DNA of 64,000 bases from Vulcanococcus limneticus LL (GCF_943369875.1 NZ_CALROT020000004.1:101765-165764); one strand, 5' to 3'; shown: positions 28,513 through 43,556, counted from the stretch's first letter. Notes: generated by a model not told the origin, from the letters alone. Numbers and translations are program-made.

Positions 28513-28611
28513 GATGGGCGCGGGTGGCCAGGTGGGTGGGGGAATGGCGGAGGGGGGGCTTTGGGGTGGTGGGCCTGGGGGGACTCCTAAGCTCGGGCCG
28601 CAGGGGCTGGG

Positions 28612-29913
28612 GTGATGGGGACGGGGCGGGAGCTGGGGCTGCAGGTGAGGGGCTGGCTGGAGGCTGGCGTGCTCGATCTCGACAACCGCACCGCCCTGGC
28701 GAACCGGCTGATCGATGGGCTCGGGGCCGAGGTGTGGCTGAGCGGGCCGGTGCGGGATCTGGCGGCCCAGCCGCTGCTGCGCCAGGTGCTGCGGCAGCAG
28801 GGCGGGGCCCAGCGCTCGGCCCTGGAGAGCCTGCGGCAGCAGCTGGAGCGCACCTATGCGCCGAGGGTGCTGGCAGAGCTGCTGGAGCTGCTGGAGGCGG
28901 CCAGCGGCCTGCCGGTCGGCCTGCCCGCACCCGACGCGCCACCGACGGGTCGCGCCCAGGGAGCCCAGGGCCTGGCGCTTCCTGTCGGTGGCCCGAGCAG
29001 CCCGAACGGTCTCCACGGAGCAGCGGCCGAGGCCACAGGTCTGGAGCTGGCGGTGGCGGAGCCACCCCTGGATGGGTCCCTGGCGGTGGCCGGACCGCGC
29101 GGGGGCCTGGGGGCACCACGCCCAGCCGCCCTCACGGGGCCTGCAGGCCTCAGCGCCCTCGCCCAGCAGCTGCGGCCGCTGGGGCCGGGCCTGGCCCTGG
29201 CCTTCGCCCTGGCCCTGGTGTGGTGGTGGGCGGCACTGGAACTCGACCGGCGCCTGTTCGATGGCTGGGGCTGGAGCGGGGGCGTGGTGCTGGCCGTGCT
29301 GCTCGCTCTGCTGCAGGCCCTGGCCCTGGGGCCCCTCAAGACGGCCCGGCGCCAGTGGCCCCTGGAGCAGGCCGATGCCACCAATCCCCACGGGGCCTGG
29401 CGCTGGCTCACGGCCCCCTGGATCCACCACGACCAGCGCGAGGCGGCGGTGAATCTGCTGATGCTGCTGGTGCTGCTGGGGCCCTCGCCGCTGCCCCTGG
29501 CCGATGTGGTGCTGCGCTACGCCCTCACCAGCCTGGCCACCGTGGCCCTGGCCCTGCTGGTGGCCCAGCGCCGCACCCCCGAGGGGCGCTGGGACGGGGC
29601 CTCCGGGGCGATCAGTGCCCTGGTGGGCCTGGGCACGGCCGCCAGCCTGCTGCACTGGCGCGCCCTGGATTTCCCCCTGGGCCGCCTGGGTTTCGGCATT
29701 CCGGCCTGGGTGCTGCTGGTGCTCTACGGCGCCCTGCAGCTGGCCTGGGTGCTGCCGCGCCGCAGCGCCCAGGACGACAGCCGGCCGCTTGATCGATTGC
29801 TCAGCAGCCAGTGGTGGTGGGGCCTGGTGCTGGGGATCGGCTGGGCCCTGGTGAGCCGAGCCGGCGAGCTGCTTCAGGCGGCGGCGCGGGCCCGGGCCAC
29901 GGCCGCCATGTAG
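28612..29913 (+). CDS. Fusion of the island N-terminal helical domain with a rhomboid-like membrane domain (probably catalytically incomplete)
   Basis: AWRWLTAPWIH...N (WR loop / TM2), WDGASGA (GxSG); no His in the last TM; N-terminus aligns with the 38027 and 40334 products. Confidence 0.7.
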   Translation: MMGTGRELGLQVRGWLEAGVLDLDNRTALANRLIDGLGAEVWLSGPVRDLAAQPLLRQVLRQQGGAQRSALESLRQQLERTYAPRVLAELLELLEAASGLPVGLPAPDAPPTGRAQGAQGLALPVGGPSSPNGLHGAAAEATGLELAVAEPPLDGSLAVAGPRGGLGAPRPAALTGPAGLSALAQQLRPLGPGLALAFALALVWWWAALELDRRLFDGWGWSGGVVLAVLLALLQALALGPLKTARRQWPLEQADATNPHGAWRWLTAPWIHHDQREAAVNLLMLLVLLGPSPLPLADVVLRYALTSLATVALALLVAQRRTPEGRWDGASGAISALVGLGTAASLLHWRALDFPLGRLGFGIPAWVLLVLYGALQLAWVLPRRSAQDDSRPLDRLLSSQWWWGLVLGIGWALVSRAGELLQAAARARATAAM

Positions 29914-32279
29914 CGGCCCCAGAGCTCAGCCACCAACGCCCCGCTGGCAGCCTCGGCCGGGCGGTTGTCGTCGTTGCCCATCCAGATCGCCGAAAGCAGA
30001 TCCAGCGAGGGGGAGTAACCAATGAACAGCACATCGACACCGTTGTTGGTGGTTCCGGTCTTGCCGCGGCCATCAGCGACCACAGCGGCAGCGCGCCCGG
30101 TACCGCGTTGCACCACGGCAGCCAGCAACCGATCCATATCGGCGGCGATCTCGGGCTTGATCAACTGGCGCGCCTGCTCACCGATCGGCACCGTGACGCT
30201 GCCGGATGGGCAATCGCTGAGGCGACGGATCGAGGAGCACATGCCCAGATCCACGATTCGCTTCACGCCATGCAGCGGCACGGATCGTCCGCCGTTGGCA
30301 ACCACGGCATAGGCACGGGCCATCTCATACAGCAGCGTTTCACGACCACCGAGCATCGTGTTGTAATCAGCATCCAGAGGATTGCTGATACCAAGGTCCC
30401 GTGCCCGTTTGACAACCTGAGCAAGGCCAGCCCGCTCCCCGAGCCGCAAGGCCACAACGTTTTCCGACAAGGCAAAGCCGTCAATTACCGTAGCCAAACC
30501 ACCCGAAGAACCAGCTCCATGACTGCAACCAGCCACATAACTCAGCGGCGCACAGGAGATTGAATCTCCCACCTTCACGCCAGCCTCAAGGGCGGCGATG
30601 AAGGGAAACAATTTAAAGGTAGAACCAGGCTGACGCAAAGCCTGGACCCGGTCAAAACTTGATCGACCGTAATCCCCCCCACCCACATAAGCGAGGATTT
30701 CTCCGGTACTGGGTCTGACACTGATCAGAGCCCCCTGCGCAAGACCGACACCTGCAGCCTGGCCATCCAGAAACCTACGCAGCTGCTGCTGAGCAAGAGC
30801 TTGCAAAGCGGGGTCAATAGTACTCTCAACGTAGTAGTTCCCACCCGAATCTTCATTCAAATTCAGGCCAAACCTTACACCCTCCAATTCGCTGATCACA
30901 TAATCACTGAAATAGGGATAAGCCTTGGTTGCGCTTTCCCGACAAGAGGAGGAATCGATGTTCAAAGGCTTGCGCTTGGCATCCGCCAGCACTTGGTCGG
31001 CCTGGGGGCCGTAGCCCAGAAAACCCTGTTCATGCATCAACTGCAGGACCAGGTTGCGACGGTGCACCGGCAACCATTCACCGTCCCGCAGAGCTTTCAC
31101 CCTCTGCCGATCGCCCTCACTCAGATTTCCCTTGCCCTGTTGACGCAGGCGCTCCTCCAACGCAGCGGCTTCTTGCCATGGTTGCGGCGCATAACAAGGG
31201 CTATAGCCATTGGGACTCGGCAGCAACCCCACCAGAAATGCCGACTGAGCCAGATCCAGCTGACTGGCCGAACGCCGGAAGTAGATCTGAGCGGCCTGCT
31301 CAAAACCATCAGTACCGAGACCGAGATGAGCCCGGTCCAGATACATCTTCAGGATCTGATTCTTGCTATATCCAACCTCAAGCTGCAACGCCACCCACAG
31401 CTCCCGCAGTTTGCGGGTGAGGCTGTAGTCCCGACCAACATCGGCATAGTAGAGACGCGCCACCTGCTGGGTGAGACCACTACCGCCGCCGCTGCCCAGC
31501 AATGCCGATCGGAACGTGCCGAACAGGTCAAGGCCACTGTTCCAACCGAAGCGTGCCTCCTCCGAGGCAATCAACGCCTGACGAAGATGCAGCGGATAGC
31601 TGGCCAGGGATGGCAGGGCCGTTGCCGAACCCTGCTTGGCATCCACCTGACTGCCATCGCTGGCAAAGATCTTCACCGGCCCGGCGATGGAGCGGATCTT
31701 CGAGCCGCCTGCCACCGTGGCCGCCGCCAGCATGCCGCTCACCAGGAGTGCCGAGCTCACCAGGCTGCCGATCCCAAGCCAGTGAATCGCCTGCTCAAGC
31801 GCACTGCGGGGATGGTGGTAGCGCAGGACGGGTGCATCACCCTTCAGCGGAGAGCCCAGCCAAACCGCATCGCCATCTCGCAGGCTGATCGCCTTGATGC
31901 GCCGGTCGCGGTGGAACAGACCGTTGGCGGAGTTGAAATCCTCCAGGGTGAAGTCGCGGTCACTCGCGCGGGCACGCTCGAGGATCGCGTGCACGCGACT
32001 CACGCCCGCCACATCCACCGGAAGCTCCGTGCCTGGATCGCGGCCGATGCGCACGCGCCCCGCACCCAGCACCAGGCGGCTGATCCGCTGCTGCCCCTGC
32101 CAGAGCTCAGCAACAGCCTGACGCTGGCGGAGATCATGCCAGGCCTGGAAGAGCGCACCACGCCTGCCAGCGCCGGCCAGGCTGCCGCGGCCACGCACAG
32201 CCGCAAGCAACTGGCGCCAGGCTTGGCGGCGACCCATGGGGGGGGCGGAAGTCTCCTGCTCCACCGTGGTCTGCTCCAT
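29874..32279 (-). CDS. FHA-domain bifunctional class A penicillin-binding protein (transglycosylase + transpeptidase)
   Basis: FHA IGRD...VSRVHA...NSANG; one TM; GT51 SEEARF, GGSGLTQQV, RKLRE, KNQILKMYL; transpeptidase RQPGSTFK (SxxK), SEN, KTG. Confidence 0.9.
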   Translation of the reverse strand: MEQTTVEQETSAPPMGRRQAWRQLLAAVRGRGSLAGAGRRGALFQAWHDLRQRQAVAELWQGQQRISRLVLGAGRVRIGRDPGTELPVDVAGVSRVHAILERARASDRDFTLEDFNSANGLFHRDRRIKAISLRDGDAVWLGSPLKGDAPVLRYHHPRSALEQAIHWLGIGSLVSSALLVSGMLAAATVAGGSKIRSIAGPVKIFASDGSQVDAKQGSATALPSLASYPLHLRQALIASEEARFGWNSGLDLFGTFRSALLGSGGGSGLTQQVARLYYADVGRDYSLTRKLRELWVALQLEVGYSKNQILKMYLDRAHLGLGTDGFEQAAQIYFRRSASQLDLAQSAFLVGLLPSPNGYSPCYAPQPWQEAAALEERLRQQGKGNLSEGDRQRVKALRDGEWLPVHRRNLVLQLMHEQGFLGYGPQADQVLADAKRKPLNIDSSSCRESATKAYPYFSDYVISELEGVRFGLNLNEDSGGNYYVESTIDPALQALAQQQLRRFLDGQAAGVGLAQGALISVRPSTGEILAYVGGGDYGRSSFDRVQALRQPGSTFKLFPFIAALEAGVKVGDSISCAPLSYVAGCSHGAGSSGGLATVIDGFALSENVVALRLGERAGLAQVVKRARDLGISNPLDADYNTMLGGRETLLYEMARAYAVVANGGRSVPLHGVKRIVDLGMCSSIRRLSDCPSGSVTVPIGEQARQLIKPEIAADMDRLLAAVVQRGTGRAAAVVADGRGKTGTTNNGVDVLFIGYSPSLDLLSAIWMGNDDNRPAEAASGALVAELWGRYMAAVARARAAA

Positions 32280-32335
32280 CACCACCACCACCGATCTGCA
32301 GAGTCATAGGGTAGGCAAAGCACCCCTCTGCGCCG

Positions 32336-32611
32336 TTGCCGCGTCACCATGACCCCTGGGAGTCGTTTCGCCTCTGGCTGGCTTTAACGCTTGCCCTGTA
32401 CGCCATCAGGGCGATCTTCGCAGCCCGGTTGCCCGGAGCCATTCCCGGCTGGATTCTGCTGCTGATGGTTCTGGTGAGTGTTGTGATGGCGGCGAAGGCC
32501 CTGCTGTTCCCCGGCAGGGTCATCCCCTACCGAGAGGGCGACGGCGGCTGGTGGACCGACGTGAGCGACGACTGGCGCCTGTGGTGGCAACGCCGGCGGC
32601 AGGGGCGATGA
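32336..32611 (+). CDS. Small two-TM hypothetical protein
   Basis: TTG start; two hydrophobic helices; Trp/Arg-rich tail; stop overlaps the next ATG (ATGA). Confidence 0.6.
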   Translation: MPRHHDPWESFRLWLALTLALYAIRAIFAARLPGAIPGWILLLMVLVSVVMAAKALLFPGRVIPYREGDGGWWTDVSDDWRLWWQRRRQGR

Positions 32612-33372
32612 GCACCACGGCCCAACTGCACCTGCGCGACACCCCCAGCAAGCGGCTGGCGCTGCAGAGCGGCCAACCGCTGACCATCGGCAGCGCCAGC
32701 AACAACCGCCTGGCCCTGGTGAGCCAGCCGGGTGTATCCCCTCACCATGCGGTGGTGCGTTACACCGCCAGCAACGGCTGGGTGGTGTGCGACTGGCAGA
32801 GCAGCGATGGCACCTATCTGGAGGGGGAGCGAATCCGACGCTGCCGCCCCCTGAGCGATGGGGATGAGATCCGTCTGGGGCGGGATGGACCGGTGCTGGT
32901 GTTCAACCTGGAGACGCCCGCTCCGACGGAGGCCCCAGCGTCCAAGGCCCCCGCCCATGCGGCATCGGCGCAAGCCGCACCGAGCCCTGGCACGCGAACA
33001 CCACAGGGGACCAGTGCTGCGCCACGAACGCCGCCGCCTCGCACGATCGACATCGACGGCACCACCGTGCCCGTGAACCAGATCCGATCGGCGGTGGTGC
33101 TCAGCGAACCCCTCTACCCGAAGATCTTCAGCTGGTGGGTGCTCGCCTGCCTGGGTGGCCTGCTGCTGCTGCCCTTCCCGCTGCTGTTCTGGCCATTGGA
33201 GCTGGCGGCTCTGTGCGGCTGGATTGTGCTGGGCTCCCGCAAGAGCCACACCCTGTTGATCGTCCAGCACGACGGCCAGGCGCAGCGACGTGCCTTTGCC
33301 AACCGGGTGACCGCTCTCTCACACCGGAACGGCATCCGCAAGGCCATCGGTCAGAGTCTCGAGAACCCCTGA
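32608..33372 (+). CDS. FHA-like domain protein with a C-terminal two-TM hairpin domain
   Basis: LTIGS...VSPHHAVV...SSDGTYLEG...LSDGDEIRLG; Pro/Ala linker; beta-TM-TM-beta tail reminiscent of DUF6232 (low confidence). Confidence 0.8.
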   Translation: MSTTAQLHLRDTPSKRLALQSGQPLTIGSASNNRLALVSQPGVSPHHAVVRYTASNGWVVCDWQSSDGTYLEGERIRRCRPLSDGDEIRLGRDGPVLVFNLETPAPTEAPASKAPAHAASAQAAPSPGTRTPQGTSAAPRTPPPRTIDIDGTTVPVNQIRSAVVLSEPLYPKIFSWWVLACLGGLLLLPFPLLFWPLELAALCGWIVLGSRKSHTLLIVQHDGQAQRRAFANRVTALSHRNGIRKAIGQSLENP

Positions 33373-33379
33373 GGACCCC

Positions 33380-34732
33380 GTGACCTGGATACTGCCGGAA
33401 GGCGCCTGGATGCAATTCGAAGGCCTGAGCAGCCCCGTCCAGGTGTTGCGAGGCCTGGGCGGGGGCACCCAGGGGCAGGTGTTTGAGGTGGCGGTGGGCG
33501 GCGAGCGTCTGGCGCTCAAGTGGTATCTGCCCAGCTGCCTGGAGAGAGATCCGCACCTGGAACGGAGGCTGCTGGAGAGCATCCGCGCCACCGCACCCAG
33601 TCGTGCCTTCCTCTGGCCGATCACGCTGCTGCGCCCCTCCGCCTCCAGCCTGCCGTTGATCCGTAGCAAGAATCCCGGCTTCGGCTATCTGATGGAGCTG
33701 CGGCCGCCTCAGTTCGTCGGCGCGGTGGAGCACTACGGCGGTCGGCTCGAGATCAGTCTGCGCCAGGCCCTCAGGGCCAGCTTTTTCCTGGCCGAGGCCT
33801 TTCACGCGCTGCACAGCAAAGGCCTTTGTTACAAGGACATCTCTCTTGGCAATCTGTTCCTGGAGGCGGCAACGGGTCGCATCCTGATCTGCGATAACGA
33901 CAACGTGGATGTGGATGGCCGCGACCTCGGCAGCGTGCTCGGCACCCCGGGATTCATGGCTCCCGAAATCCTGATGAGACGGGGCAGACCCGGTGCCAAC
34001 AGCGATCTCTTCTCGATCGCCGTACTGCTGTTCATGCTGCTGACCCGACACCATCCACTCCGCGGACAGATGGAGCTGGCCATTCGCTGCCTGGATGAAC
34101 CGGCGCGCCGCAAGCTCTACGGGGAGGATCCGGTGTTCATCTTCGACCCACAGGACTGCCGAAACCGGCCCGATCCAACGGAGCACGCTGCCGCTCTGCT
34201 GCTCTGGCCGATCTATCCGATACCCCTTCAGGAGCTGTTCATTCAATCCTTCTGCACAGGCATGCATGCCCCCAGCCAACGGGCCCTCACCGGGCAGTGG
34301 ATGGAGAAGCTGGCCGCCGTGCTCGACCAGCGCCAGACCTGTCCCGCCTGCGGCTCGGAGCACTTCAGTTCCCAGACCACCTGTTGGTATTGCGCCGAGC
34401 CCCTGGGCATCGCTGCGGCGTTGCGCATGGCCAACGGTCGGGTGATGGCCTGCACCGATAACGAGCTACATGCCCACCACTTCAACAGCCTGGAGGCACC
34501 GCGCCTCGATGAGCCGATCGCGCGCGTGGTGGCCCACCCCAGCGACCCCAGGCTGCTTGGACTGCGAAACCTGAGCGATCAGCCCTGGCGGGCCACGGCT
34601 GCGGGGGGCCAGCAGCATGCCGTTGCCCCAGGCAAAACATGTAATCTCGCAGCGCTTCTCCAGCTCGACACACCCTGGGGTGCGGTGCGCCTGGAGCCCG
34701 CCAGAAGCGAGCACCTCAGCACGCGATCCTGA
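33380..34732 (+). CDS. Soluble Ser/Thr protein kinase of the YegI / TerY-P type with a Cys4 zinc ribbon
   Basis: LGGGTQGQV, LALKWY, CYKDISLGN, ICDNDN in place of DFG, GTPGFMAPE, SDLFS; CPACG...CWYC. Confidence 0.92.
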   Translation: MTWILPEGAWMQFEGLSSPVQVLRGLGGGTQGQVFEVAVGGERLALKWYLPSCLERDPHLERRLLESIRATAPSRAFLWPITLLRPSASSLPLIRSKNPGFGYLMELRPPQFVGAVEHYGGRLEISLRQALRASFFLAEAFHALHSKGLCYKDISLGNLFLEAATGRILICDNDNVDVDGRDLGSVLGTPGFMAPEILMRRGRPGANSDLFSIAVLLFMLLTRHHPLRGQMELAIRCLDEPARRKLYGEDPVFIFDPQDCRNRPDPTEHAAALLLWPIYPIPLQELFIQSFCTGMHAPSQRALTGQWMEKLAAVLDQRQTCPACGSEHFSSQTTCWYCAEPLGIAAALRMANGRVMACTDNELHAHHFNSLEAPRLDEPIARVVAHPSDPRLLGLRNLSDQPWRATAAGGQQHAVAPGKTCNLAALLQLDTPWGAVRLEPARSEHLSTRS

Positions 34733-37045: not shown

Positions 37046-37986
37046 CGGACTACGCACTGGGCAGCGCGATCCGAGCAGCCCTGGATCAACCCGGATCATC
37101 AGGCTCCCGAAGCGTTGAGTCTCGCCTGCCGCAGCTGGTGGCTGCCGATCAGCAGGATCTGCTGCCGGCCCTCAGCTTCCTGCTGCGCTCGCGCGCCATG
37201 GCCAGCGCCCTGGCCCAGCCCAGCGGCCGTGATGACGGCCGCATCGCCGCCCGACTACTGGCGGAGGTGGAAGCCCAGTACAGCCCGGCCATCTGCCAGA
37301 GGCTCCAGGGGGTGATCCAAGGGATGGTCGGGATGCCCGAGCGACAGGCGCCGCACCCCAGCCCCGCCTGGAGCCCGGTGCCACCGGCTCAGGCGGTGGT
37401 CAACCAGCCGGCGGTCACCACCCTGGTGACCACGAGCAGCAGCGGCAGCAGCTGGGTGGTGGCTCTGCTCTGCTTCCTGATCGGCATCGTGGGGAGCGGG
37501 CTGCTGTTGTTGCTCTGGCAGCAGCAGCAGCAGCAGGGCAAACAAGCCGTCAATGTCAGCGCGACGCCCCCCGCACCGACGAACCCACCGGAGCCGCAGC
37601 CGTCCAGCCCAGTGGCACCGGCTAGTGAACCAAGCGCCGCACCGGCCGGCACCGCAGCGATCGATGCCGCCGTGGCCAGCATTCAGGAGCTCTATGCCGC
37701 CCTCTCCGCCAAGGATTATGCAAGCGCCTCCAACCACTACGGCGGCCAGGCCGCCGATCAGTTTGATCCCACCTTCTTCAACCAATTCGAACGGGTGACC
37801 GTGGCGGATCTCCGCCAGACCAGCAGCGCCGGCTCAACGATGAATTTCGAAGGCGTGGTGACCTTTGTCTATCCGAATGGCGATGTTCAGACCGAATCCC
37901 GTAGCTTCACGATGGATACCCGCACCACGCCCGTGCTGATCACCAGCAGCGAATTCGGACGGGTGCTTCAGCCCCGCCGTGGCTAA
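37042..37986 (+). CDS. Island paralogue P1: N-terminal helical domain, TM, Pro linker, NTF2/SnoaL-like extracytoplasmic domain
   Basis: DYALG...YSPAICQRL; TM WVVALLCFLIGIVGSGLLLLLW; C-terminal IQELYAALSAKDY...QFDPTFFNQFERV...ESRSF. Confidence 0.8.
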   Translation: MTDYALGSAIRAALDQPGSSGSRSVESRLPQLVAADQQDLLPALSFLLRSRAMASALAQPSGRDDGRIAARLLAEVEAQYSPAICQRLQGVIQGMVGMPERQAPHPSPAWSPVPPAQAVVNQPAVTTLVTTSSSGSSWVVALLCFLIGIVGSGLLLLLWQQQQQQGKQAVNVSATPPAPTNPPEPQPSSPVAPASEPSAAPAGTAAIDAAVASIQELYAALSAKDYASASNHYGGQAADQFDPTFFNQFERVTVADLRQTSSAGSTMNFEGVVTFVYPNGDVQTESRSFTMDTRTTPVLITSSEFGRVLQPRRG

Positions 37987-38026
37987 TTAGCCGGCCGGTA
38001 GGCTCAACGCACTCACAGCTGCGCCC

Positions 38027-38986
38027 TTGGCTTCAACCTCTGACCACGCGCTGGGGCAACGACTGGCCCAGCTGATCCAGCAGAGCGGAGACTCAGCCTT
38101 TGAAGGCGGTGTGCTCAGCCGCCGGTTGCAGGCTCAGCTCCAGGATCTGCTCGGTGCCGAGACCTCGCTGCTCAACCCGCTCCGGGATCTGCTGCAGCGA
38201 CCCAGCTTCCGGCAGCTCTTCAGCCTGGGCAGCCAGGGACAGCTCCTCCATGCTCGCGACGCCCTGCTGCGGGATCTGGCTGACGTCTACAGCCCAACAG
38301 TGCTGAACAGGCTGGATGCGGTGCTGCAGGGGTGCCTCAACCTGCACGGGGCCGCTGCCGCCACCTGGCCGGCAGCGGCTCCCCCATCCACCGTCAGGAG
38401 CGCAGCACCAGCCGGCCCGTCAGCCTCCTGGTCATCAGCACCCAGCAGCCAACCCCCTCCTGTCGCCTCCGCGCCCCCCACGGTGGTGACCATCCCCACC
38501 CATGCGCAGGGGCCGACGTCCATCCTGATCGCGCTGCTGGCCCTGATCTGCGGCGCGCTGGTGATGGCCCTGGCGGGGGTGCTGATCGGCAACCGCAGCA
38601 CCAACGGCACCACCAGCCCACCGGCCGCCACGAAGCCGAGCAGCCCTCCAGCACCGACTGCTCCCCTCATCCAACCGGCACCCGAACCGCCGCGGTCAGA
38701 GCCGGAGGCCGCAACGGCCGGCCAGTGGCAGGCTTGCGTGGATTACGGCGGCAACGATGGTCCACCTCCCCAGCCCGGCCAAACATGGTGGCCGGTGGTG
38801 GGCCCCGGCGAAGCCCTCGAAGCCTCCCGCCTGCATTGCCGCGGCGACGCCTTCACCAATGCCAACGGCAATGCGCAGGTCGCCAGCTTTCGCGATCGCG
38901 ATACAGCAGCAGCCTTCGCCCAGCAGCTCACCGAAGACAGCAGTCATCCCTACAGCTTCTGGGTTGGCGACCCCACGCAGCGCTGA
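38027..38986 (+). CDS. Island paralogue P2: N-terminal helical domain, TM, SPOR-like C-terminal domain
   Basis: DHALG...YSPTVLNRL; TM ILIALLALICGALVMALAGVLI; QVASFRDRDTAAAFAQQL resembles the SPOR beta-alpha unit. Confidence 0.75.
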   Translation: MASTSDHALGQRLAQLIQQSGDSAFEGGVLSRRLQAQLQDLLGAETSLLNPLRDLLQRPSFRQLFSLGSQGQLLHARDALLRDLADVYSPTVLNRLDAVLQGCLNLHGAAAATWPAAAPPSTVRSAAPAGPSASWSSAPSSQPPPVASAPPTVVTIPTHAQGPTSILIALLALICGALVMALAGVLIGNRSTNGTTSPPAATKPSSPPAPTAPLIQPAPEPPRSEPEAATAGQWQACVDYGGNDGPPPQPGQTWWPVVGPGEALEASRLHCRGDAFTNANGNAQVASFRDRDTAAAFAQQLTEDSSHPYSFWVGDPTQR

Positions 38987-40171
38987 TCAGGCGCAGCTGC
39001 GCCGCACCTGCGTATAGACCTGCTCAAACCGATCCCACCGGAAGCTGCGGGGGTCGTAGCGACTGCGGCTGCGATCCACCGCGGCATGCGTCGTGATCCG
39101 CTCCAAGGGGATCCCATAGAGAGCCTGCCAGCGCAAGATCTGTTCAGCCAAGGCTCGGTATTGCGCTTCGGTGTATCCCGAGTGCCCGCCCTGATCGCCA
39201 CGGCCATCCTCAGGACTCTCCAGGCTGACATGCAAAGCAATGTTGTTGATGGATGGTGGATTGTTTGCCGAAGTCTTGAAGCTGAGATCCCCAAAAGCAG
39301 AATCGCCAGCGCCATAGGCACGGGCCTGGTCGGGCACGATGCGCACTCTCTCTCCATCACGCCCGATCAACACGTGATAACTGCCCTGGGCCGAATCATT
39401 GGCCTGATCACGCTGGAAGAGCTCAACCGTTGAGGGCAGATCCAGAACCGTTTCATGCAACACGATCAGTGCAGGTTCTGCCGGGATGGCAGCACCGCTG
39501 GCGTCCTGCGTCTGCCGTTTGCCAAAGTTGCTGGCCGCCGCCAGCCGCTGGGTCTCCTGCTGGGGTGACCCCAGACGGGCGCAACGGTCCAGGCCATCCA
39601 CCGCCACGGGCGTGGCTGGCGCGCGCAACGATGAACCTGCGGTGCCCGTGGCCGGAGAACCTGCCGGCGCAAGGGCCGGATCGATCGCTGGGAGGGGTGG
39701 TGCCGCCACTCGAAACGCGGTCAGTCCCAGCCAACTGAGGCCCGCGCCGATGGCCACACCCACGCCCAGCCCCAGCAGCCAGCTGCGTAGATCGGGCTCC
39801 TGCCGATCTGCGGACAGCCCCGAGGCAGGAGCTGAATCCCCACCCTCCTGCCAGCCCTCCAGCAAGCCATCGAGGAAGGCCTGCTGCGGCGACACGCTGT
39901 CGGCCGGAAGGCTCCGACCAGCGCCATCCAGCAGCTCCTTCAGGGCCTGAGCACGGGCGCCATCCTGATCCGAAGCCAGCAGGGTGACGCAGGCCGGGTG
40001 GCGCAGCAGGGTGATCAGGCATTCCCGCAGCTGAGGCTGATCAGCCAGCAAGTGCTGCAACGCATGGGCGATGGCAGCCGGTACCTCCTCCGACGCCAGT
40101 CCACGCCTGCGCGCCGATAACACCAGGCCTCGAGCCAGGGAGAAGAGATCGGAGGCCTGCTGAGAGCGCAT
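38987..40171 (-). CDS. Membrane-anchored N-acetylmuramoyl-L-alanine amidase (Amidase_2) with a diverged island N-terminal domain
   Basis: IVLHET, GSYHVLIGRDG, SLES, YTEAQYRAL, ITTH...YDP Zn-ligand pattern; TM WLLGLGVGVAIGAGLSWLGL. Confidence 0.88.
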   Translation of the reverse strand: MRSQQASDLFSLARGLVLSARRRGLASEEVPAAIAHALQHLLADQPQLRECLITLLRHPACVTLLASDQDGARAQALKELLDGAGRSLPADSVSPQQAFLDGLLEGWQEGGDSAPASGLSADRQEPDLRSWLLGLGVGVAIGAGLSWLGLTAFRVAAPPLPAIDPALAPAGSPATGTAGSSLRAPATPVAVDGLDRCARLGSPQQETQRLAAASNFGKRQTQDASGAAIPAEPALIVLHETVLDLPSTVELFQRDQANDSAQGSYHVLIGRDGERVRIVPDQARAYGAGDSAFGDLSFKTSANNPPSINNIALHVSLESPEDGRGDQGGHSGYTEAQYRALAEQILRWQALYGIPLERITTHAAVDRSRSRYDPRSFRWDRFEQVYTQVRRSCA

Positions 40172-40305
40172 CAGGAGTCAGCCTGGTGAAACGGGAGAGA
40201 GGAACCAAGGCGCCGCCCCGGAGCAGCACAGGCCACCCAGGAGCGCGCATAGGGCAGCGCCCAGAAGTACTGCGGAGCTGCTCAGCCCCAGGTTCACGCC
40301 GATCC

Positions 40306-40311
40306 TATACT
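40306..40311 (+). promoter_or_regulatory. Possible -10 element for P3
   Basis: TATACT in an AT-rich spacer 23 bp before the TTG at 40334. Confidence 0.35.
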
Positions 40312-40333
40312 GATAACAGCGACAAAAAAGTCC

Positions 40334-41353
40334 TTGACAGGCAGCCCTGACTATCAACTTGGCAAGAGAATTGCACAGTTTCTCAATCAGAATGGCAGCA
40401 ACAACAATCCCGACAGCCGACTGATCAACAGCCTGCCAGACCTGATGGGGAGTGATCCATCTCTACTCCCACCCTTACGGGACATGATTCTGCGTCCCAG
40501 CTTGCGCAGGCTGCTGCACGAGAGCCAACCATCCCTCCTGCGGAGTGGACGCGACAGCCTGATTGCAGATCTGCAATTTACCTACAGCAGCACCATCATC
40601 TTTCGACTGCAACGTGTGCTGAGTGGCATCCTCAACCTGCCGGATATCGACGAACCGCGCACTCACGGACAGTGGGTCGATAACCCGCCCCCCCACTCAC
40701 AGGATTGGCCGCCCTCCAGCCACAGCGTTTCAGCACAACCCACCCCCAGCACCACAGTCACCTACGCCATTCAGACGCCATCCCAGGGCCAAAGCGGGCT
40801 GACTGCCGCGATGATCGCCCTGTTGGCCCTCATCTGTGGGGGAGGGCTCGTGGGCTTGATCTGGCTGCTGACCGGCCAATCCCCGCCGACACGCCAGGAT
40901 TCGCCTTCAACAACCCAGGCTCCGACCACGCCCTCACCAGCTGCCCCCGCACCACGTCAGCTGCAGGAGCCCACCCCTGCCCCCTCCAATCCCTGGGGGC
41001 CACCAGAGGAGTACAAATTCGGCCAGGGCCCCAGCCAGACCTATCCAGACACCTGTGCCTTCTCCAAGACGGACGCCCGTGGCGAACGGACGCTGGAGGA
41101 TAAATCACAACTGGAATTCTGGGCTTGCCGTGATGAAGGCGGCGACACCAATACCGGTTATGCCGTGATCTGGGGTGACGGCAAACGCACGGTCTACCGC
41201 TTCATGAACGGCGGGACTGGCGTGGTACAGGGAACCAACGGCCAGGATGTACCGATGTCTTGGCGCAACGACACCCACAACGGCCAGAAGATCATCGCCA
41301 TCAGCCATCAGGACGGGGCAAACTCCTGGATTCCTGGCCATGTGGACGACTGA
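40334..41353 (+). CDS. Island paralogue P3: N-terminal helical domain, TM, unknown beta-rich extracytoplasmic domain
   Basis: DYQLG...YSSTIIFRL; TM MIALLALICGGGLVGLIWLL; C-terminal domain with two Cys and alternating beta-strand patterns. Confidence 0.75.
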   Translation: MTGSPDYQLGKRIAQFLNQNGSNNNPDSRLINSLPDLMGSDPSLLPPLRDMILRPSLRRLLHESQPSLLRSGRDSLIADLQFTYSSTIIFRLQRVLSGILNLPDIDEPRTHGQWVDNPPPHSQDWPPSSHSVSAQPTPSTTVTYAIQTPSQGQSGLTAAMIALLALICGGGLVGLIWLLTGQSPPTRQDSPSTTQAPTTPSPAAPAPRQLQEPTPAPSNPWGPPEEYKFGQGPSQTYPDTCAFSKTDARGERTLEDKSQLEFWACRDEGGDTNTGYAVIWGDGKRTVYRFMNGGTGVVQGTNGQDVPMSWRNDTHNGQKIIAISHQDGANSWIPGHVDD

Positions 41354-41362
41354 ACGCGAGCC

Positions 41363-42513
41363 ATGAACGACCATCAGCTTCGCGTCCTGCTGCGAGAGCG
41401 GATCATGGCCGACCTGCAGAGCGGCATTCCGTGCGAGGGCCAGCACCTGCAGCTGTTGATGGGCGACCCTGCGGCGAGCTTCAGATGCCCCTGCTGCCAG
41501 CCCTGCGCTATCTGGTGAGGAGCCCGGCGTTCAGCAACGCCGTGGAGCAGAGGCCAGCGCTGACCGGGGAAACCCGCCTGCACCTACTGCACGAGGAACT
41601 TGAGAAGGCGTTCACCGTTGCGATCTGCCGACGCATGACGGCGGTGCTGCGGGACCTGCTCGGGCTGCCCGCAGGGGAGATCGCAGCGTTGGGCAAGGCC
41701 AGCGCACCGCCCACCACCCCTGGGCCACAGCCGATGCCAAGGCCTCCGCAACCGCTGCACCGACCGCTGCGGTCCATCGCCGGGCAGTCAAGCCAGTCGA
41801 CGTGAGCGATCCCACAGGGGGGTGAACTGCCCGCGGGCTGGCCGATCGAGGAGTTGATCCGGGAGCAGCCCGGCTGCGGGCGCGCCGCCGCAGGCGGCAG
41901 GCGATCTGTGGCGGTGGTGCTCAGCTTCATGGCCGAGGTGCTGGTGGTGGGCGTCCTGGGAGCGCTGGGCTGGATGGCACAGATCAGCCGTCAACCACTG
42001 CAGCCCCTTCACAGCAGCCAAGGCACCAGCCAGCAGCCGCTGGAAACCGAAGCAGCTCCACTCCAACCACAGGAGCCCGCGGCCAGCCCGCCTTCCCCGG
42101 CACCTGATCTGGGCACACAGGAGGCCAACCCTGACCAGGCGATCACCAGGGCTCAAAAGCTCTATGCCGAGCTCTCGAGCGGCAAGATGGATGCCGTGCG
42201 CCAACTGTTCAGCCCCGCCAGCCTCAGGCAGCGCCAGAGCCAGATCACCGGGCTGGCCACGGGTCAGCTCCAGGCCCGCCAGCTCCAGCGCAACGCCGCC
42301 ACCGATCCGCTCGGGGCCCTGCTCGGCACGGCCTTCCTGGCCCGGGAGCCGCAGCAGACGCCCCGGCCGCTCCGCGCCCTGGGGGCCAGCCCGGAGCTGG
42401 AGGCGGCCCTGGCCGCGACCTGGCCGGCCGGACCGGCGGACAGGAGGATGGGACCACGGCCCGCCCAGGCCGGCCCCACCGGCTCCAGCCGGCCCACGGC
42501 CCCACCGCCATGA
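41363..42513 (+). pseudogene. Island paralogue P4: frameshifted, interrupted and chimeric
   Basis: MNDHQL...MGD then a frameshift near 41468 into ELQMPLLPALRYLV; in-frame TGA at 41803-41805; TM RSVAVVLSF; NTF2-like domain breaks off at FSPA (~42219) and continues into unrelated high-GC sequence. Confidence 0.75.
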
Positions 42514-43556
42514 ACGACTACCAGCTCGGCGCGGCCCTGCGCGCCCAGGTGATCCAGGACCGCCAGCGCGGCCTGCCCGTGGAGGGGCGGCGGCTGCAGG
42601 CGCTGGTGGGCGATCTGGGCGGCGCCGAGCAGGCCGGCCTGCTGCCGGCCCTGCGTTACCTGGTGTTCTGCCCCGCCTTCCACAGCGCGGCGAGCCAGGC
42701 CGAGCCCCTGGCGGATCCGCGGCTGCTGACGCGGCTGATGCAGGAGCTGCAGGAGGTGTTCACCCCCGCCATCTGCCAGCGGATGCAGCGGGTGGTCGAG
42801 GGGCTGCTGGGCCTGCCCGCCACACCGGTCGCGGGTGCAGCCGCGGCTGTCGCCGCCGCACCGGTGCCGGCCCCCGTGCCGGAGCCAGTCGGTCTGGTGG
42901 CGATGCCCGTGCCGCTCGACGATCCGCGCCCGCCCACGTCGGAGCAGGCCCTGGCGCTGCTGGCCGCGAACCGCAGCGGCGCCGGCGGCGGCGGCAGCCG
43001 CTCCCTGGTGGTGGTGCTCTCCTTCCTCTGTGGCGGCCTGCTGGTGGGGCTGCTGGGCCTGCTGGTGTTCCTGCAGATGGCCGGCCGCCGCCAGCCCCAG
43101 CTCGGCACCAGCGAGGCCCGCCCGCCCGTACCTGTGGCCCAGCCGGTGACACCGCCGGCGACCCCGACCCTGCCGGAACCCGAGCCCGGCCCGCCCACCA
43201 GCGACGAGGCGGCCAGCAGCGAGGCCGCCAACCTGAATCAGGCCATCTCCCGGGTGCAGGAGCTCTACGGGGCCCTCTCCAGCAAGAACTACGACGCCGC
43301 CCGCGGCTTCTTCGCCGGAGCCGCCGCCGACCAGTTCGATCCCACCTTCTTCAACCAGTTCGAGCGGGTGAGCGTCGCCGAGCTGCGGGAGAGCGGCCGC
43401 AGCGGCAGCACCCTCACCCTGGAGGGCCAGGTGACCTTCACCTATCCGGATGGCACCAGCCAGCTGGAGAGCCGCAGCTTCACCGTCGACACGGCCACAA
43501 CCCCGGCGGTGATCACGGACAGTGCCTTCGGCCAGGTGCTCAAGGGGCGCCAGTGA
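42510..43556 (+). CDS. Island paralogue P5: N-terminal helical domain, TM, NTF2/SnoaL-like domain (host-like codon usage)
   Basis: DYQLG...FTPAICQRM; TM LVVVLSFLCGGLLVGLLGLLVFL; QFDPTFFNQFERV identical to P1. Confidence 0.82.
   Translation: MNDYQLGAALRAQVIQDRQRGLPVEGRRLQALVGDLGGAEQAGLLPALRYLVFCPAFHSAASQAEPLADPRLLTRLMQELQEVFTPAICQRMQRVVEGLLGLPATPVAGAAAAVAAAPVPAPVPEPVGLVAMPVPLDDPRPPTSEQALALLAANRSGAGGGGSRSLVVVLSFLCGGLLVGLLGLLVFLQMAGRRQPQLGTSEARPPVPVAQPVTPPATPTLPEPEPGPPTSDEAASSEAANLNQAISRVQELYGALSSKNYDAARGFFAGAAADQFDPTFFNQFERVSVAELRESGRSGSTLTLEGQVTFTYPDGTSQLESRSFTVDTATTPAVITDSAFGQVLKGRQ

What the first reader, a model, noticed from the sequence alone, without database searches (positions are those of the whole stretch)
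28612..43556. Candidate undescribed system: TerY-P-like kinase/vWA/phosphatase switch linked to an FHA-PBP and an array of membrane receptor/effector paralogues
Seen: between atpC and psrp-3 lie 14 annotated genes plus a possible mini-ORF, and every recognisable product is either phospho-signalling (kinase, TerY vWA, PP2C, two FHA domains) or cell-envelope-facing (class A PBP, Zn amidase, SPOR-like, rhomboid-like, NTF2-like domains). Genes from 32336 to 37986 are joined by ATGA/TGATG/GTGA overlaps or very short gaps (7 bp before the kinase; 61 bp after the PP2C, spanned by a mini-ORF), and this unit diverges from the FHA-PBP across only ~55 bp. Established: the TerY-PP2C-kinase triad (E. coli YegL/YegK/YegI type) is a known stress-response module with reported anti-phage activity, and FHA domains bind phospho-Thr. 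Inference: envelope damage or attack is sensed by the single-pass paralogues and the membrane PP2C, the soluble kinase is released, and phospho-Thr is read by the FHA-PBP to control peptidoglycan synthesis versus hydrolysis. I do not know of a described system combining these parts.
Basis: partly seen in the sequence, partly recalled or inferred. Interest (0 to 1): 0.92.

Follow-up and report, generated by a model that had tools for sequence, protein, structure and literature searches.

The report
Phospho-switch wired to a cell-wall synthase
Freshwater picocyanobacteria keep a kinase, adaptor and phosphatase trio next to a cell-wall synthase that has a phospho-threonine reader fused to its cytoplasmic end, so phosphorylation probably controls wall growth here; the parts are known, but this wiring and a new membrane-protein family attached to it have not been described.

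Summary
Window 28612-43556 encodes an FHA-fused class A PBP, an FHA-TM protein, a small TM protein, a YegI/TerY-P-type kinase, a TerY-like vWA protein and a membrane PP2C. It also encodes seven copies (one broken) of a Pfam-less cytoplasmic six-helix N-domain, each fused through a TM helix to a different periplasmic module.

The clustering is not chance. Of 53 picocyanobacterial loci with enough flank, 48 carry FHA-PBP, smTM, FHA-TM, kinase, vWA and PP2C in the same order. This six-gene core also sits in at least three different chromosomal contexts. Relatives in other phyla pair the same triad with FHA-SLT, FHA-PrsW or 2xFHA-ABC exporters.

The most likely function is a Thr-phosphorylation switch on envelope enzymes. 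It would be read by the invariant FHA pocket of the PBP, and the hyper-conserved vWA tail (LPPTxxD...VW) is the candidate phospho-ligand.

The paralogue array is accessory: 0-2 copies elsewhere, 7 here, with the same array in one metagenome scaffold. In this genome about 11 kb (31.1-42.2 kb) was imported by recombination, which left a fossil PP2C 3' end.

The defence reading is not supported, because the locus is syntenic and chromosomal and PADLOC is negative (though uninformative). It is not excluded.

Verdict: a new variant of a known kind, of moderate to high interest.

The parts
28612..29913 (+). RhoN: cytoplasmic N-domain (aa 1-~110), long linker, then a rhomboid-like multi-pass membrane domain. 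It is probably a pseudoprotease.
   Evidence: Pfam Rhomboid scores 30.3 bits against a cut-off of 22.6. The N-domain HMM gives E 1e-38. An orthologue follows atpC in most freshwater loci. TM2 His and Asn are conserved, but the GxSxG Ser is kept in only 19 of 36 orthologues and there is no TM6 His.
29874..32279 (-). FHA-PBP1A: cytoplasmic FHA domain (aa ~60-150), TM helix, then periplasmic GT51 glycosyltransferase and transpeptidase. The ORF runs to 32291; the likely ATG is at 32279.
   Evidence: Pfam FHA 1.5e-11, Transgly 1.9e-38, Transpeptidase 4.2e-22. The following are invariant in 51 orthologues: FHA R84, S98, R99, H101 and N123; GT51 E244 and E297; and the SxxK, SxN and KTG motifs.
32280..32335 (.). 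56-bp divergent intergenic region holding a conserved, nearly palindromic -10-like motif TAnGCTA (window 32307-32313).
   Evidence: Alignment of 50 orthologous intergenic regions; coordinates. That it acts as a promoter is inference. The sigma-70 scan found nothing.
32336..32611 (+). smTM: 91-aa protein with two TM helices, first gene of the operon.
   Evidence: Present in 48 of 53 picocyanobacterial loci, always together with FHA-TM and FHA-PBP. Conserved motifs RDPWxPFRxW and LFPGRV. No Pfam family.
32608..33372 (+). FHA-TM: cytoplasmic FHA domain, Pro-rich linker, TM hairpin and a conserved tail (TALxHRNGIR). It resembles FhaB/FipA.
   Evidence: Pfam FHA 5.4e-15. NCBIfam FhaB_Rv0019c E 1.4e-10, which is below its cut-off. 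ATGA overlap with smTM. The canonical GR arginine is Ser in the window copy only (R in 47 of 54).
33380..34732 (+). Soluble Ser/Thr kinase of the YegI/TerY-P type: kinase domain, CxxC...CxxC zinc ribbon and a ~100-aa C-terminal domain.
   Evidence: Pfam Pkinase 2e-14. Invariant residues: K47, YKD153xSLGN158, D172, TPGFxAPE and C321/324/335/338. Similar to YegI and to the ter-cluster kinase. 1849 homologues found.
34732..35466 (+). TerY-like standalone vWA protein with an intact MIDAS site (DCSGS) and a hyper-conserved C-terminal tail, NIPLPDLPPT232xxDPxxDVGPxVW-COOH.
   Evidence: Pfam VWA 5.6e-07. PADLOC TerY is weak, E 0.0027. Similar to YegL (E 9e-7) and to Klebsiella TerY (E 4e-16). Tail conservation seen in 75 homologues from several phyla.
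35463..36980 (+). Membrane PP2C: cytoplasmic PP2C_2 domain (aa 1-~295), linker, TM (~343-365), then a ~140-aa periplasmic tail with two Cys.
   Evidence: Pfam PP2C_2 1.4e-25. Catalytic motifs QD, DGHG, GDxD, DG and GSGDD are at least 90% conserved in 70 homologues. The periplasmic part is only 34% identical to L090, against 73% for the catalytic part.
37042..37986 (+). par1: N-domain + TM + NTF2-like periplasmic domain.
   Evidence: N-domain HMM E 4e-42. The C-domain is 56% identical to that of par6, whose model is NTF2-like. An orthologue lies at the same position in L090.
38027..38986 (+). par2: N-domain + TM + an ~88-aa Cys-containing periplasmic domain of unknown fold.
   Evidence: N-domain HMM E 3e-42. 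No Pfam or PDB hit for the C-domain. The L090 orthologue is 69% identical.
38987..40171 (-). parAmi: N-domain + TM + periplasmic Amidase_2 (a zinc N-acetylmuramoyl-L-alanine amidase of the AmpD/PGRP type).
   Evidence: Pfam Amidase_2 1.3e-17. NCBIfam AmpD E 1e-10. N-domain HMM E 6e-35. The L090 orthologue has the same position and strand, and its amidase domain is 82% identical.
40334..41353 (+). par4: N-domain + TM + a ~120-aa periplasmic domain with no recognisable family.
   Evidence: N-domain HMM E 3e-48. No Pfam family. In the L090 orthologue the C-domain is 81% identical.
41363..42513 (+). Broken, chimeric pseudogene. A frameshifted N-domain paralogue (par5) is fused at about 42210 to the fossil 3' end of a resident Vulcanococcus-type PP2C gene. 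This is the right-hand recombination scar.
   Evidence: Reading frames. The last ~95 aa of ORF 41854-42513 nearly equal the C-terminus of the L015 PP2C. The DNA identity jump at 42210 is.
42510..43556 (+). par6: N-domain + TM + NTF2-like domain. This is the 'native' copy, 89% identical to that of Vulcanococcus limneticus. Its type follows the PP2C in many genomes.
   Evidence: N-domain model: six helices, pLDDT 80, no PDB match. C-domain model: pLDDT 89.5 and NTF2-like, with Foldseek hits to 2jq5, the N-terminal domains of PBP5fm and PBP2a, and RsgI9 NTF2.
31100..42210 (.). Imported block of ~11 kb with lower GC. It holds the 5' half of the PBP gene, the whole signalling operon and the paralogue array.
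   Evidence: Identity to L015 is 88-94% in the flanks, falls to 70-77% between 31195 and 36317, and there is no collinear match from 36.3 to 42.2 kb. GC3 is 0.69-0.82 inside against 0.88-0.94 in the flanks. GC profile. L090 is collinear across the block.

Best explanation
This is a conserved envelope-control module of freshwater picocyanobacteria. The window comes from a Vulcanococcus-like genome in a lake metagenome.

The core is six genes that travel together. One is a bifunctional class A PBP whose cytoplasmic N-terminus is an FHA domain. Transcribed divergently from it is the translationally coupled operon smTM, FHA-TM, kinase, vWA, PP2C.

Proposed mechanism:
1. The soluble YegI/TerY-P-type kinase phosphorylates a threonine at the inner face of the membrane. 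The best candidate acceptor is T232 in the hyper-conserved C-terminal tail of the vWA protein (LPPTxxD, a pTxxD-type FHA ligand). The kinase itself is an alternative.
2. The FHA domains of the PBP and of FHA-TM dock on that phospho-threonine. This assembles a membrane complex that switches the PBP's peptidoglycan synthesis on or off, or relocates it.
3. The membrane-anchored PP2C resets the switch.
4. Proteins with the new cytoplasmic six-helix N-domain are interchangeable accessory partners. They place periplasmic modules (NTF2-like, amidase, rhomboid-like and unknown domains) under the same control. They may dock on the vWA MIDAS site through their near-invariant Asp.

Shown: gene content, order, conservation, intact catalytic and pThr-binding residues, and the recurrence of 'triad + FHA-fused envelope effector' across phyla.

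Inferred: who is phosphorylated, the sign of the regulation, the input signal and the role of the N-domain.
For: 1. Conserved linkage. 48 of 53 picocyanobacterial loci with enough flank have FHA-PBP, smTM and FHA-TM beside the triad, and the triad is complete in 51-52 of 52. Start/stop overlaps are kept in relatives. The six-gene core also lies in other chromosomal contexts (L051, L028).

2. Working parts.
- The FHA pThr-binding residues and the GT51 and TPase motifs of the PBP are invariant in 51 orthologues.
- The kinase catalytic residues and zinc ribbon are invariant.
- The PP2C metal-binding motifs are at least 90% conserved.
- The vWA MIDAS site is intact and its C-terminal tail is conserved from cyanobacteria to Acidobacteria, Chloroflexi and Planctomycetes.

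3. Recurring theme in the same kinase clade.
- 2xFHA-ABC2 exporter in marine Synechococcus and Prochlorococcus.
- FHA-PrsW plus a YkuD L,D-transpeptidase in Pegethrix.
- FHA-SLT lytic transglycosylase in Pyrinomonadaceae, and FHA-PrsW in Nostoc.

4. Precedents.
- FHA binding to the phosphorylated C-terminus of a vWA protein, ArnA/ArnB (PMC6509490, PMC12852372).
- PknF with the FHA-ABC exporter Rv1747 (PMC8339232).
- The PstP/PknB/FhaA/FhaB cell-wall locus (PMC6554272).
- Fha binding to pThr of TssL (PMC3953482).

5. Vertical inheritance at a fixed site between atpC and psrp-3, and low-level transcription in a lake metatranscriptome.
Against: - There is no experimental data for any member.
- The phospho-acceptor is a guess. 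T232 is conserved within picocyanobacteria but not in distant phyla, where the tail is only Ser/Thr- and acid-rich.
- The N-domain has no conserved Ser or Thr. It is absent within 10 kb of the core in three loci.
- The window's own FHA-TM has lost the canonical phosphate-binding Arg.
- Other members of the triad family sit in ter clusters on conjugative plasmids and on predicted viral contigs. Some TerY-P systems are reported as anti-phage (PMC7699616), so the module need not be a housekeeping one.
- I could not check whether these genomes have another class A PBP.
Confidence: 0.55

Rival explanations
1. An envelope-based anti-phage or anti-grazer defence system. A TerY-P-type triad senses infection or envelope attack and, through the FHA-fused effectors, remodels or shuts down wall synthesis. 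The N-domain paralogues would act as diversified receptors or effectors.
For: - The triad is homologous to TerY-P triads. A triad of that name is reported as antiviral (PMC7699616).
- Distant members lie on plasmids and predicted viral contigs.
- In Prochlorococcus MIT 0707 the triad sits next to a phage-type integrase.
- In this genome the block was exchanged by recombination and the paralogue number varies from 0 to 7.
- The PP2C periplasmic tail evolves fast.
Against: - The six-gene core is syntenic and vertically inherited in about 50 genomes at a housekeeping site.
- The output is an apparently fully active class A PBP under strong purifying selection.
- The paralogue C-domains are conserved at 77-82% between window and L090, not hypervariable.
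- PADLOC models do not call it, though the control shows this test is blind to E. coli YegIKL as well.
- No nuclease, NTPase or other typical defence effector is present.
Confidence: 0.2
2. A metal or oxidative-stress sensing switch in the original sense of the Ter systems. The vWA MIDAS site binds a metal, this gates the kinase/phosphatase balance, and the envelope genes are only one of several outputs.
For: - The vWA keeps a complete MIDAS site.
- It is homologous to the TerY proteins of tellurite-resistance clusters.
- The related D. radiodurans vWA-STPK-FHA-PP2C operon is linked to stress responses (10.64898/2026.01.23.701218).
Against: - There are no terD, terZ, terC or other ter genes in the window or in any of the picocyanobacterial loci.
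- The constant neighbours are envelope enzymes with FHA domains, not metal-handling proteins.
Confidence: 0.12
3. The genes are neighbours without functional coupling, a chance cluster of signalling and envelope genes in a variable region.
For: The paralogue array is variable. Part of the region is a recent recombination import with a pseudogene scar.
Against: - The order and orientation are the same in 48 of 53 loci.
- Start/stop overlaps are conserved.
- The core is kept as a unit in three chromosomal contexts.
- The 'triad + FHA-effector' theme recurs in other phyla.
Confidence: 0.03

Closest known systems
TerY-P (TerY-phosphorylation) triad: vWA (TerY) + PP2C + Ser/Thr kinase. Examples are E. 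coli YegL/PphC(YegK)/YegI and the ter clusters of Klebsiella and IncHI plasmids (Anantharaman, Iyer & Aravind 2012, cited via PMC4978471; YegI 10.1101/819920; PphC 10.1101/303594).
   Same: The same three families sit in one translationally coupled operon. [quoted passage not shown] The kinase is 29% identical over 327 aa to the ter-cluster kinase. The vWA is 26% identical over 199 aa to TerY.
   Different: - The gene order is kinase-vWA-PP2C.
- There are no ter genes, DNA-processing genes or T7SS genes.
[quoted passage not shown]
- The PP2C is membrane-anchored and shows no BLASTP similarity to the ter-cluster PP2C.
- The triad is fixed next to an FHA-PBP, FHA-TM, smTM and N-domain proteins.
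- It is chromosomal and syntenic rather than island-borne.
Actinobacterial cell-wall/division locus fhaA-fhaB(fipA)-pstP-rodA-pbpA-pknA-pknB (PMC6554272; 10.1101/2022.02.28.482390).
   Same: A Hanks-type kinase, a membrane PP2C with an extracytoplasmic tail, FHA proteins (one FHA+TM, like FhaB/FipA) and a peptidoglycan synthase lie in one conserved locus. There, phospho-Thr read by FHA domains controls wall synthesis.
   Different: - The kinase here is soluble and has no PASTA sensor.
- A vWA adaptor is present.
- The synthase is a class A PBP, and the FHA domain is fused to it directly rather than acting through MviN, CwlM or FhaA.
- There is no SEDS protein.
- NCBIfam FhaB scores 41 bits against a cut-off of 125.
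M. tuberculosis PknF and Rv1747, an ABC exporter with two N-terminal FHA domains (PMC8339232).
   Same: An FHA domain fused to the cytoplasmic end of a membrane envelope effector and controlled by a neighbouring Ser/Thr kinase. The marine relatives of this cluster carry exactly a 2xFHA-ABC2 exporter beside the triad.
   Different: In the window the FHA-fused effector is a PBP1A, not a transporter. The kinase family differs, and vWA and PP2C partners are present.
Sulfolobus ArnA (FHA) / ArnB (vWA) / ArnC,D kinases / PP2A module (PMC6509490, PMC12852372, PMC7472852).
   Same: A standalone vWA protein is phosphorylated on its C-terminal part by a Hanks-type kinase and then bound by an FHA domain. 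A phosphatase resets it. This is the best mechanistic precedent for the proposed vWA-tail/FHA step.
   Different: - It is archaeal.
- Its output is transcriptional control of the archaellum.
- ArnB has a beta-sandwich and a four-helix bundle, not a short linear tail.
- There are no membrane effectors.
Type VI secretion threonine-phosphorylation pathway, PpkA/PppA/Fha (PMC3953482).
   Same: A kinase, a PP2C and an FHA protein gate a membrane machine after transcription. PpkA itself carries a vWA domain (from my own knowledge). One distant relative of this triad, L071, lies beside three FHA genes and a T6SS tssK.
   Different: There are no T6SS genes here, and the vWA is cytoplasmic and standalone.
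Deinococcus radiodurans DRA0331-0334 operon, vWA-STPK-FHA-PP2C (10.64898/2026.01.23.701218).
   Same: The same four domain families occur in one operon.
   Different: There the kinase is a transmembrane protein, the PP2C carries its own FHA domain, and the proposed role is in the DNA-damage response. There is no PBP or other envelope effector.

Membership tests
TerY-P triad (sensu Anantharaman et al. 2012) | Standalone TerY-type vWA protein with an intact MIDAS site | tested here: met
   Pfam VWA and VWA_2 hits. DxSxS, T and D are present and conserved. BLASTP to the Klebsiella ter-cluster vWA gives E 4e-16 and to YegL E 9e-7.
TerY-P triad (sensu Anantharaman et al. 2012) | Adjacent PP2C-family phosphatase | tested here: met
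   PF13672 E 1.4e-25, and the catalytic motifs are conserved. Sequence similarity to PphC covers only 44 aa, and there is none to the ter-cluster PP2C.
TerY-P triad (sensu Anantharaman et al. 2012) | Adjacent Ser/Thr kinase of the YegI/ter-cluster type | tested here: met
   tblastn finds 2353 plasmids with the ter-cluster kinase, and the neighbourhood was confirmed. Pairwise identity is 29% over 327 aa, E 4e-29. YegI gives E 3e-6, with the alignment running through the Cys cluster. JGI gives orthologues the COG4248 name.
TerY-P triad (sensu Anantharaman et al. 2012) | Linkage to ter genes (TerD/TerZ/TerC) or DNA-processing modules. This is frequent but not obligatory. | tested here: not met
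   None is present in the window region or in the picocyanobacterial loci.
TerY-P anti-phage system (Gao et al. 2020, as modelled in PADLOC 2.0) | Proteins match the PADLOC TerY-P models | tested here: inconclusive
   Only a weak TerY hit (15 bits, E 0.0027). The kinase hits generic PD-T4-6 and mad6 models, and the PP2C hits nothing. The control with E. coli YegI, PphC and YegL also gives no TerY-P hit, so the models are too narrow to decide.
TerY-P anti-phage system | Protects against phage when expressed | not testable with these tools
   Needs plaque assays.
Class A penicillin-binding protein (PBP1A family) | GT51 catalytic Glu residues and motifs, and the TPase SxxK, SxN and KTG motifs | tested here: met
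   Pfam Transgly and Transpeptidase hits. All motifs are invariant in 51 orthologues. TIGR02074 scores 363 bits, below its 509-bit cut-off, matched in two stretches.
FHA domain (phospho-Thr reader) | Conserved Arg, Ser, Arg/His and Asn of the pThr pocket | tested here: met
   In FHA-PBP, R84, S98, R99, H101 and N123 are invariant. In FHA-TM the pocket is kept in orthologues, but the window copy has Ser in place of the GR Arg.
Rhomboid intramembrane serine protease | Ser (GxSxG, TM4) and His (TM6) catalytic dyad | tested here: not met
   The Pfam domain is present and the window copy has the Ser. However, only 19 of 36 orthologues keep it, and none has a His at the TM6 position. No PDB sequence match was available to anchor the alignment.
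Actinobacterial FhaB/FipA | Equivalog-level match to FhaB_Rv0019c | tested here: not met
   41 bits against a cut-off of 125. The architecture (FHA + TM) is similar, but this is not membership.
NTF2-like fold (par1 and par6 C-domains) | alpha+beta cone fold | tested here: met
   AF2 model with pLDDT 89.5 and pTM 0.82. Foldseek matches NTF2-like domains of 2jq5, PBP5fm/PBP2a, RsgI9 and limonene epoxide hydrolase, with TMq 0.55-0.72. No Pfam hit.
   No Pfam hit at E up to 10 and no PDB sequence hit at E up to 10.

The most novel reading that the evidence does not exclude
The N-domain family (about 430 clusters, no Pfam family, no PDB fold match) is the docking module of a previously unrecognised, modular envelope surveillance system of picocyanobacteria. 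In this reading each N-domain protein couples a different periplasmic sensor or enzyme to a domesticated TerY-P triad, through the vWA MIDAS site or its tail. The phospho-signal is executed directly by FHA-fused wall enzymes. The cassette slot behind the PP2C is exchanged between lineages by recombination because it faces phages or grazers. That would make it a new class of envelope-level immunity or repair, and it would give TerY-P triads their first explicit outputs.
Probability: 0.15. Interest if true: 0.85.

Novelty: new variant of a known kind. Interest (0 to 1): 0.6.

Why it matters
TerY-P triads are widespread, but what they act on is essentially unknown. In this clade the outputs are written into the gene architecture, as FHA domains fused to a class A PBP, a lytic transglycosylase, a PrsW protease or an ABC exporter. 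This turns an open question into simple experiments, such as phosphosite mapping on the vWA tail, FHA-peptide binding and peptidoglycan labelling.

It would also be the first indication of how picocyanobacteria regulate wall synthesis after translation. These are major freshwater primary producers with very few Ser/Thr kinases.

The work also defines a new cytoplasmic domain family. Finally, the recombination scar shows that the whole signalling cassette can be swapped between lineages as a unit.

Tried and rejected
- PADLOC scan for TerY-P: no call. I rejected this as evidence against the triad, because E. coli YegI, PphC and YegL also fail.
- Pfam at E up to 10 on the C-domains of par1, par2, par4 and par6, the PP2C tail, the kinase C-domain, smTM and the FHA-TM tail: nothing usable.
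- PDB fold search with the N-domain model: best E 3.7 and TM at most 0.35, so no fold assignment.
- PDB sequence searches with the rhomboid part and the par2 C-domain: no hits. 'SPOR-like' stays unverified.
- Word-indexed homologue search with the N-domain profile found only 7 proteins. The exhaustive search found 429 clusters, so the first number was a sensitivity artefact.
- A conserved phospho-acceptor in the N-domain: none found. Only an alternating T83 / [S/T]85 in a [TV][YF][AST]P motif.
- Iterated N-domain HMM on loci from other phyla: no hits, so the domain looks restricted to picocyanobacteria.
- Sigma-70 promoter and terminator scans: no promoter-like sites, and terminator-like sites no more frequent than in shuffled sequence.
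- Phage database: one weak kinase hit and none for par6.
- Rfam and tRNA scans: nothing inside the region.
- The founding TerY-P paper (PMC4104200) is not held. It is cited only through PMC4978471 and my own knowledge.
- Hypervariable periplasmic domains as a sign of an arms race: rejected for the paralogues, whose C-domains are 77-82% identical to L090, but noted for the PP2C tail at 34%.

Full report
**What is in the sequence**

The window is GC-rich (0.72-0.75), dipping to 0.60-0.67 between 30 and 42 kb. Six-frame ORFs, codon-position GC and Pfam give this map.

| Coordinates | Strand | Gene |
|---|---|---|
| 27990-28397 | + | atpC |
| 28612-29913 | + | RhoN: rhomboid-like protein with an N-terminal extension |
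| 29874-32279 | - | PBP with FHA, Transgly and Transpeptidase domains |
| 32336-32611 | + | smTM: 91-aa protein with two TM helices |
| 32608-33372 | + | FHA-TM: FHA domain plus TM hairpin |
| 33380-34732 | + | kinase |
| 34732-35466 | + | vWA |
| 35463-36980 | + | PP2C_2 with TM helix and periplasmic tail |
| 37042-37986 | + | par1, single-pass |
| 38027-38986 | + | par2, single-pass |
| 38987-40171 | - | parAmi, single-pass, Amidase_2 |
| 40334-41353 | + | par4, single-pass |
| 41363-42513 | + | broken gene |
| 42510-43556 | + | par6 |
| 43665-44150 | - | psrp-3 |

So is a 22-aa bridging mini-ORF at 36977-37045. The PBP gene and the operon diverge across 56 bp.

**The paralogue family**

RhoN, par1, par2, parAmi, par4, par6 and the broken gene share a ~105-aa N-terminal domain.

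- An HMM of the domain finds seven copies in the window. In related loci it finds at most two, and only in picocyanobacteria. The search converges at 76 ORFs.
- An exhaustive profile search of 1.84 billion representative proteins gives 429 clusters. In all of the listed best hits the domain lies at or near the N-terminus.
- Among the best 150, the C-terminal partners are Rhomboid (14), ARC6-like IMS (3), TPR (2), and Amidase_2, GUN4 and FtsH_ext (1 each). Most have no Pfam family.
- The AlphaFold model is a six-helix bundle (pLDDT 80, pTM 0.71) with no match in the PDB (best E 3.7).
- Conserved positions are structural, plus a near-invariant Asp35 and Gly38. No Ser or Thr is conserved.
- The C-domain of par6 and par1 models confidently (pLDDT 89.5). 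It is NTF2-like, resembling the membrane-proximal domains of PBP5fm and PBP2a and the NTF2 domain of RsgI9.
- The par2 C-domain has no Pfam or PDB match, so 'SPOR-like' remains unverified.
- The rhomboid keeps the TM2 His and Asn. Its Ser is kept in only 19 of 36 orthologues and it has no TM6 His, so it is probably a pseudoprotease.

**Is the clustering more than chance?**

The kinase has 1849 homologues. The nearest are all from Cyanobium, Synechococcus and Vulcanococcus. Contexts came from encoding contigs and from 80 GTDB loci, and were scored by tblastn with the window proteins.

- Of 53 picocyanobacterial loci with enough upstream sequence, 48 have FHA-PBP (-), smTM, FHA-TM, kinase, vWA and PP2C in the same order.
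- The triad is complete in 51-52 of 52 loci.
- Most of these loci lie between atpC-RhoN and psrp-3.
- The six-gene core also occurs in other contexts. In L051 it lies between ABC-transporter and PRTase-CE genes on one side and SpoIIE-HAMP and RNR genes on the other. In L028 it lies between AraC regulators and an M32 peptidase.
- Start/stop overlaps recur in relatives.

It is not met for the PBP.

It is met for the array. Of 40 fully covered loci, 3 have no N-domain gene, 17 have one and 20 have two, against seven in the window. Only one metagenome scaffold, L090 (GC 0.60, kinase 88% identical), has the same order PP2C-par1-par2-amidase(-)-par4-par5. A closer relative by locus structure, L087, has none.

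**Relatives outside the freshwater clade**

| Organism (locus) | Genes beside the triad |
|---|---|
| Marine lineages (L004-6, Prochlorococcus MIT 0707 L013, L054) | No FHA-PBP. They have a 2xFHA-ABC2 exporter, a Zn-peptidase and Trypsin_2(-TPR); L013 and L054 also have an N-domain protein. L013 also has a phage-type integrase. |
| Pegethrix | MORN, YkuD L,D-transpeptidase, FHA, FHA-PrsW, RDD |
| Pyrinomonadaceae | WD40, FHA, FHA-SLT, FHA, T6SS tssK |
| Nostoc | WD40, FHA-PrsW |

The common denominator is the triad plus an FHA domain fused to a membrane enzyme that acts on the envelope.

**Are the parts functional?**

- In 51 FHA-PBP orthologues the pThr-pocket residues (R84, S98, R99, H101, N123), the GT51 Glu residues and the SxxK, SxN and KTG motifs are all invariant.
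- The kinase keeps K47, the YKDxSLGN catalytic loop, D172, TPGFxAPE and a four-Cys ribbon.
- The PP2C motifs are at least 90% conserved in 70 homologues. Freshwater forms mostly have a TM helix, and marine forms are short and soluble.
- The vWA has an intact MIDAS site and a striking C-terminal tail. In picocyanobacteria it reads NIPLPDLPPTxxDPxDDVGPxVW-COOH. In distant phyla it reads NVPIPxxP...DDVW-COOH.
- The TxxD spacing matches one well-known class of FHA ligands (my own knowledge).
- The window's FHA-TM is the only one of 54 with Ser in place of the GR arginine.

**Relation to known systems**

- The kinase matches E. coli YegI (22%, E 3e-6, through the Cys cluster). The vWA matches YegL (E 9e-7). 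The PP2C matches PphC only over 44 aa.
- A tblastn search of plasmids finds 2353 records. The one I inspected holds the classical ter cluster vWA-TerD-vWA-TerY-C-PP2C-kinase. Pairwise values are: kinase 29% over 327 aa, E 4e-29; vWA 26% over 199 aa, E 4e-16; PP2C no hit.
- The triad is therefore a TerY-P triad in the architectural sense.
- PADLOC models do not recognise it, but they do not recognise YegI, YegK or YegL either.
- Eight predicted viral contigs carry distant kinases. Six have a vWA gene next to the kinase and five also a PP2C, in the same order.
- Functional analogues are the actinobacterial fhaA-fhaB-pstP-rodA-pbpA-pknA-pknB locus (PMC6554272), PknF-Rv1747 (PMC8339232), ArnA/ArnB (PMC6509490, PMC12852372), T6SS Fha-TssL (PMC3953482) and D. 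radiodurans DRA0331-0334.
- Literature searches found no description of an FHA-class A PBP fusion or of this cluster.

**History of this particular locus**

The flanks are closest to Vulcanococcus limneticus LL (L015): 88% DNA identity over 23383-31061 and 91-94% over 42210-48000. Identity drops to 70-77% over 31195-36317, and nothing collinear exists between 36.3 and 42.2 kb. GC3 is 0.69-0.82 inside the block and 0.88-0.94 outside it.

The last ~95 aa of ORF 41854-42513 are almost identical to the C-terminus of the L015 PP2C. The front of that ORF is a par-type TM and NTF2 fragment.

So an ~11-kb block was imported from a lower-GC relative. It ran from the middle of the PBP gene to a fifth paralogue. 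It replaced the resident genes and left a fossil PP2C end as the scar. L090 is collinear with the block.

Compared with L090:
- The cytoplasmic core is well kept: vWA 95%, kinase 88%, FHA of the PBP 92%.
- The paralogue C-domains are 77-82% identical.
- Linkers are 32-53% identical.
- The PP2C periplasmic tail is 34% identical.

The array genes are thus maintained by selection, and their periplasmic domains are not hypervariable.

**Expression**

The sequence comes from a lake-water metagenome. In one freshwater metatranscriptome, contigs at least 88% identical cover parts of the cluster at depth 0.1-10. atpC and psrp-3 reach 1700-3000. Nothing covers 38.8-41.5 kb. This is weak evidence for low-level transcription.

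**Conclusion**

The cluster is real, and its core is a functional unit. The best explanation (about 0.55) is a Thr-phosphorylation switch that controls a class A PBP, and in relatives other envelope enzymes, through fused FHA domains. A TerY-like vWA adaptor would be the likely phospho-ligand and a membrane PP2C the reset. N-domain proteins would be interchangeable accessory partners.

A defence role (about 0.2) and a metal or stress-sensing role (about 0.12) are not excluded.

It is a new variant of a known kind. Its novel elements are the FHA-aPBP fusion, the fixed wiring of a TerY-P triad to envelope effectors and the N-domain family.

Noticed in passing
window 41854-42513 (junction near 42210): This ORF is chimeric. 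Its front half is a par-type TM plus the start of an NTF2 domain. Its last ~95 aa are the fossil C-terminus of a Vulcanococcus-type PP2C. It marks the right end of an ~11-kb recombination import. The left breakpoint lies inside the PBP gene at about 31.1 kb.
   Followed up: yes
window 32749-32751 (FHA-TM residue 48 of the 273-aa ORF): The window's FHA-TM has Ser where 47 of 54 orthologues have the canonical phosphate-binding Arg of the GR motif. It is the only Ser in the set. This could be a weakened FHA domain, a compensated change or a sequencing error.
   Followed up: partly
window 32307-32313: A conserved, nearly palindromic TAnGCTA element sits in the 56-bp divergent region, 24 nt before the smTM start. 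It is kept in about 50 orthologous intergenic regions that are otherwise GC-rich and variable. It may be a shared or bidirectional -10 element.
   Followed up: partly
window 35380-35466 (vWA C-terminal tail): The tail NIPLPDLPPTxxDPxDDVGPxVW-COOH is conserved across picocyanobacteria. Its ends (N[IV]P[IL]P ... DDVW-COOH) are conserved in Acidobacteria, Chloroflexi, Planctomycetes and Nostoc. One marine orthologue (L054) has Glu in place of the Thr.
   Followed up: partly
window 36977-37045: A 22-aa mini-ORF overlaps the PP2C stop and the par1 start by ATGA at both ends. Its conservation was not tested. It may only reflect translational coupling.
   Followed up: no
L013 15168-16361 (Prochlorococcus sp. 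MIT 0707): A phage-type integrase gene lies about 2 kb downstream of the triad, after a Trypsin_2-TPR gene. In this marine lineage the module may therefore sit at the edge of a genomic island.
   Followed up: no
L007, L016, L032, L040, L052 (record titles): Several GTDB MAG records that carry this plainly picocyanobacterial locus are titled Klebsiella, Chitinophaga, Bradyrhizobium, Asaia or Bordetella. The titles appear to be mislabelled.
   Followed up: no
window 60814-60898 (-): Rfam ATPC RNA motif (54.5 bits against a gathering score of 45), far from the finding and not next to the atpB/atpC genes at 26-28 kb.
   Followed up: no
window 29874-29913: The convergent genes RhoN and FHA-PBP overlap by 40 bp at their 3' ends.
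   Followed up: no
window 38780-41500: No contigs from the freshwater metatranscriptome X24 lie on parAmi or par4, although neighbouring cluster genes have low coverage. These genes are either not expressed or absent from the population sampled.
   Followed up: no
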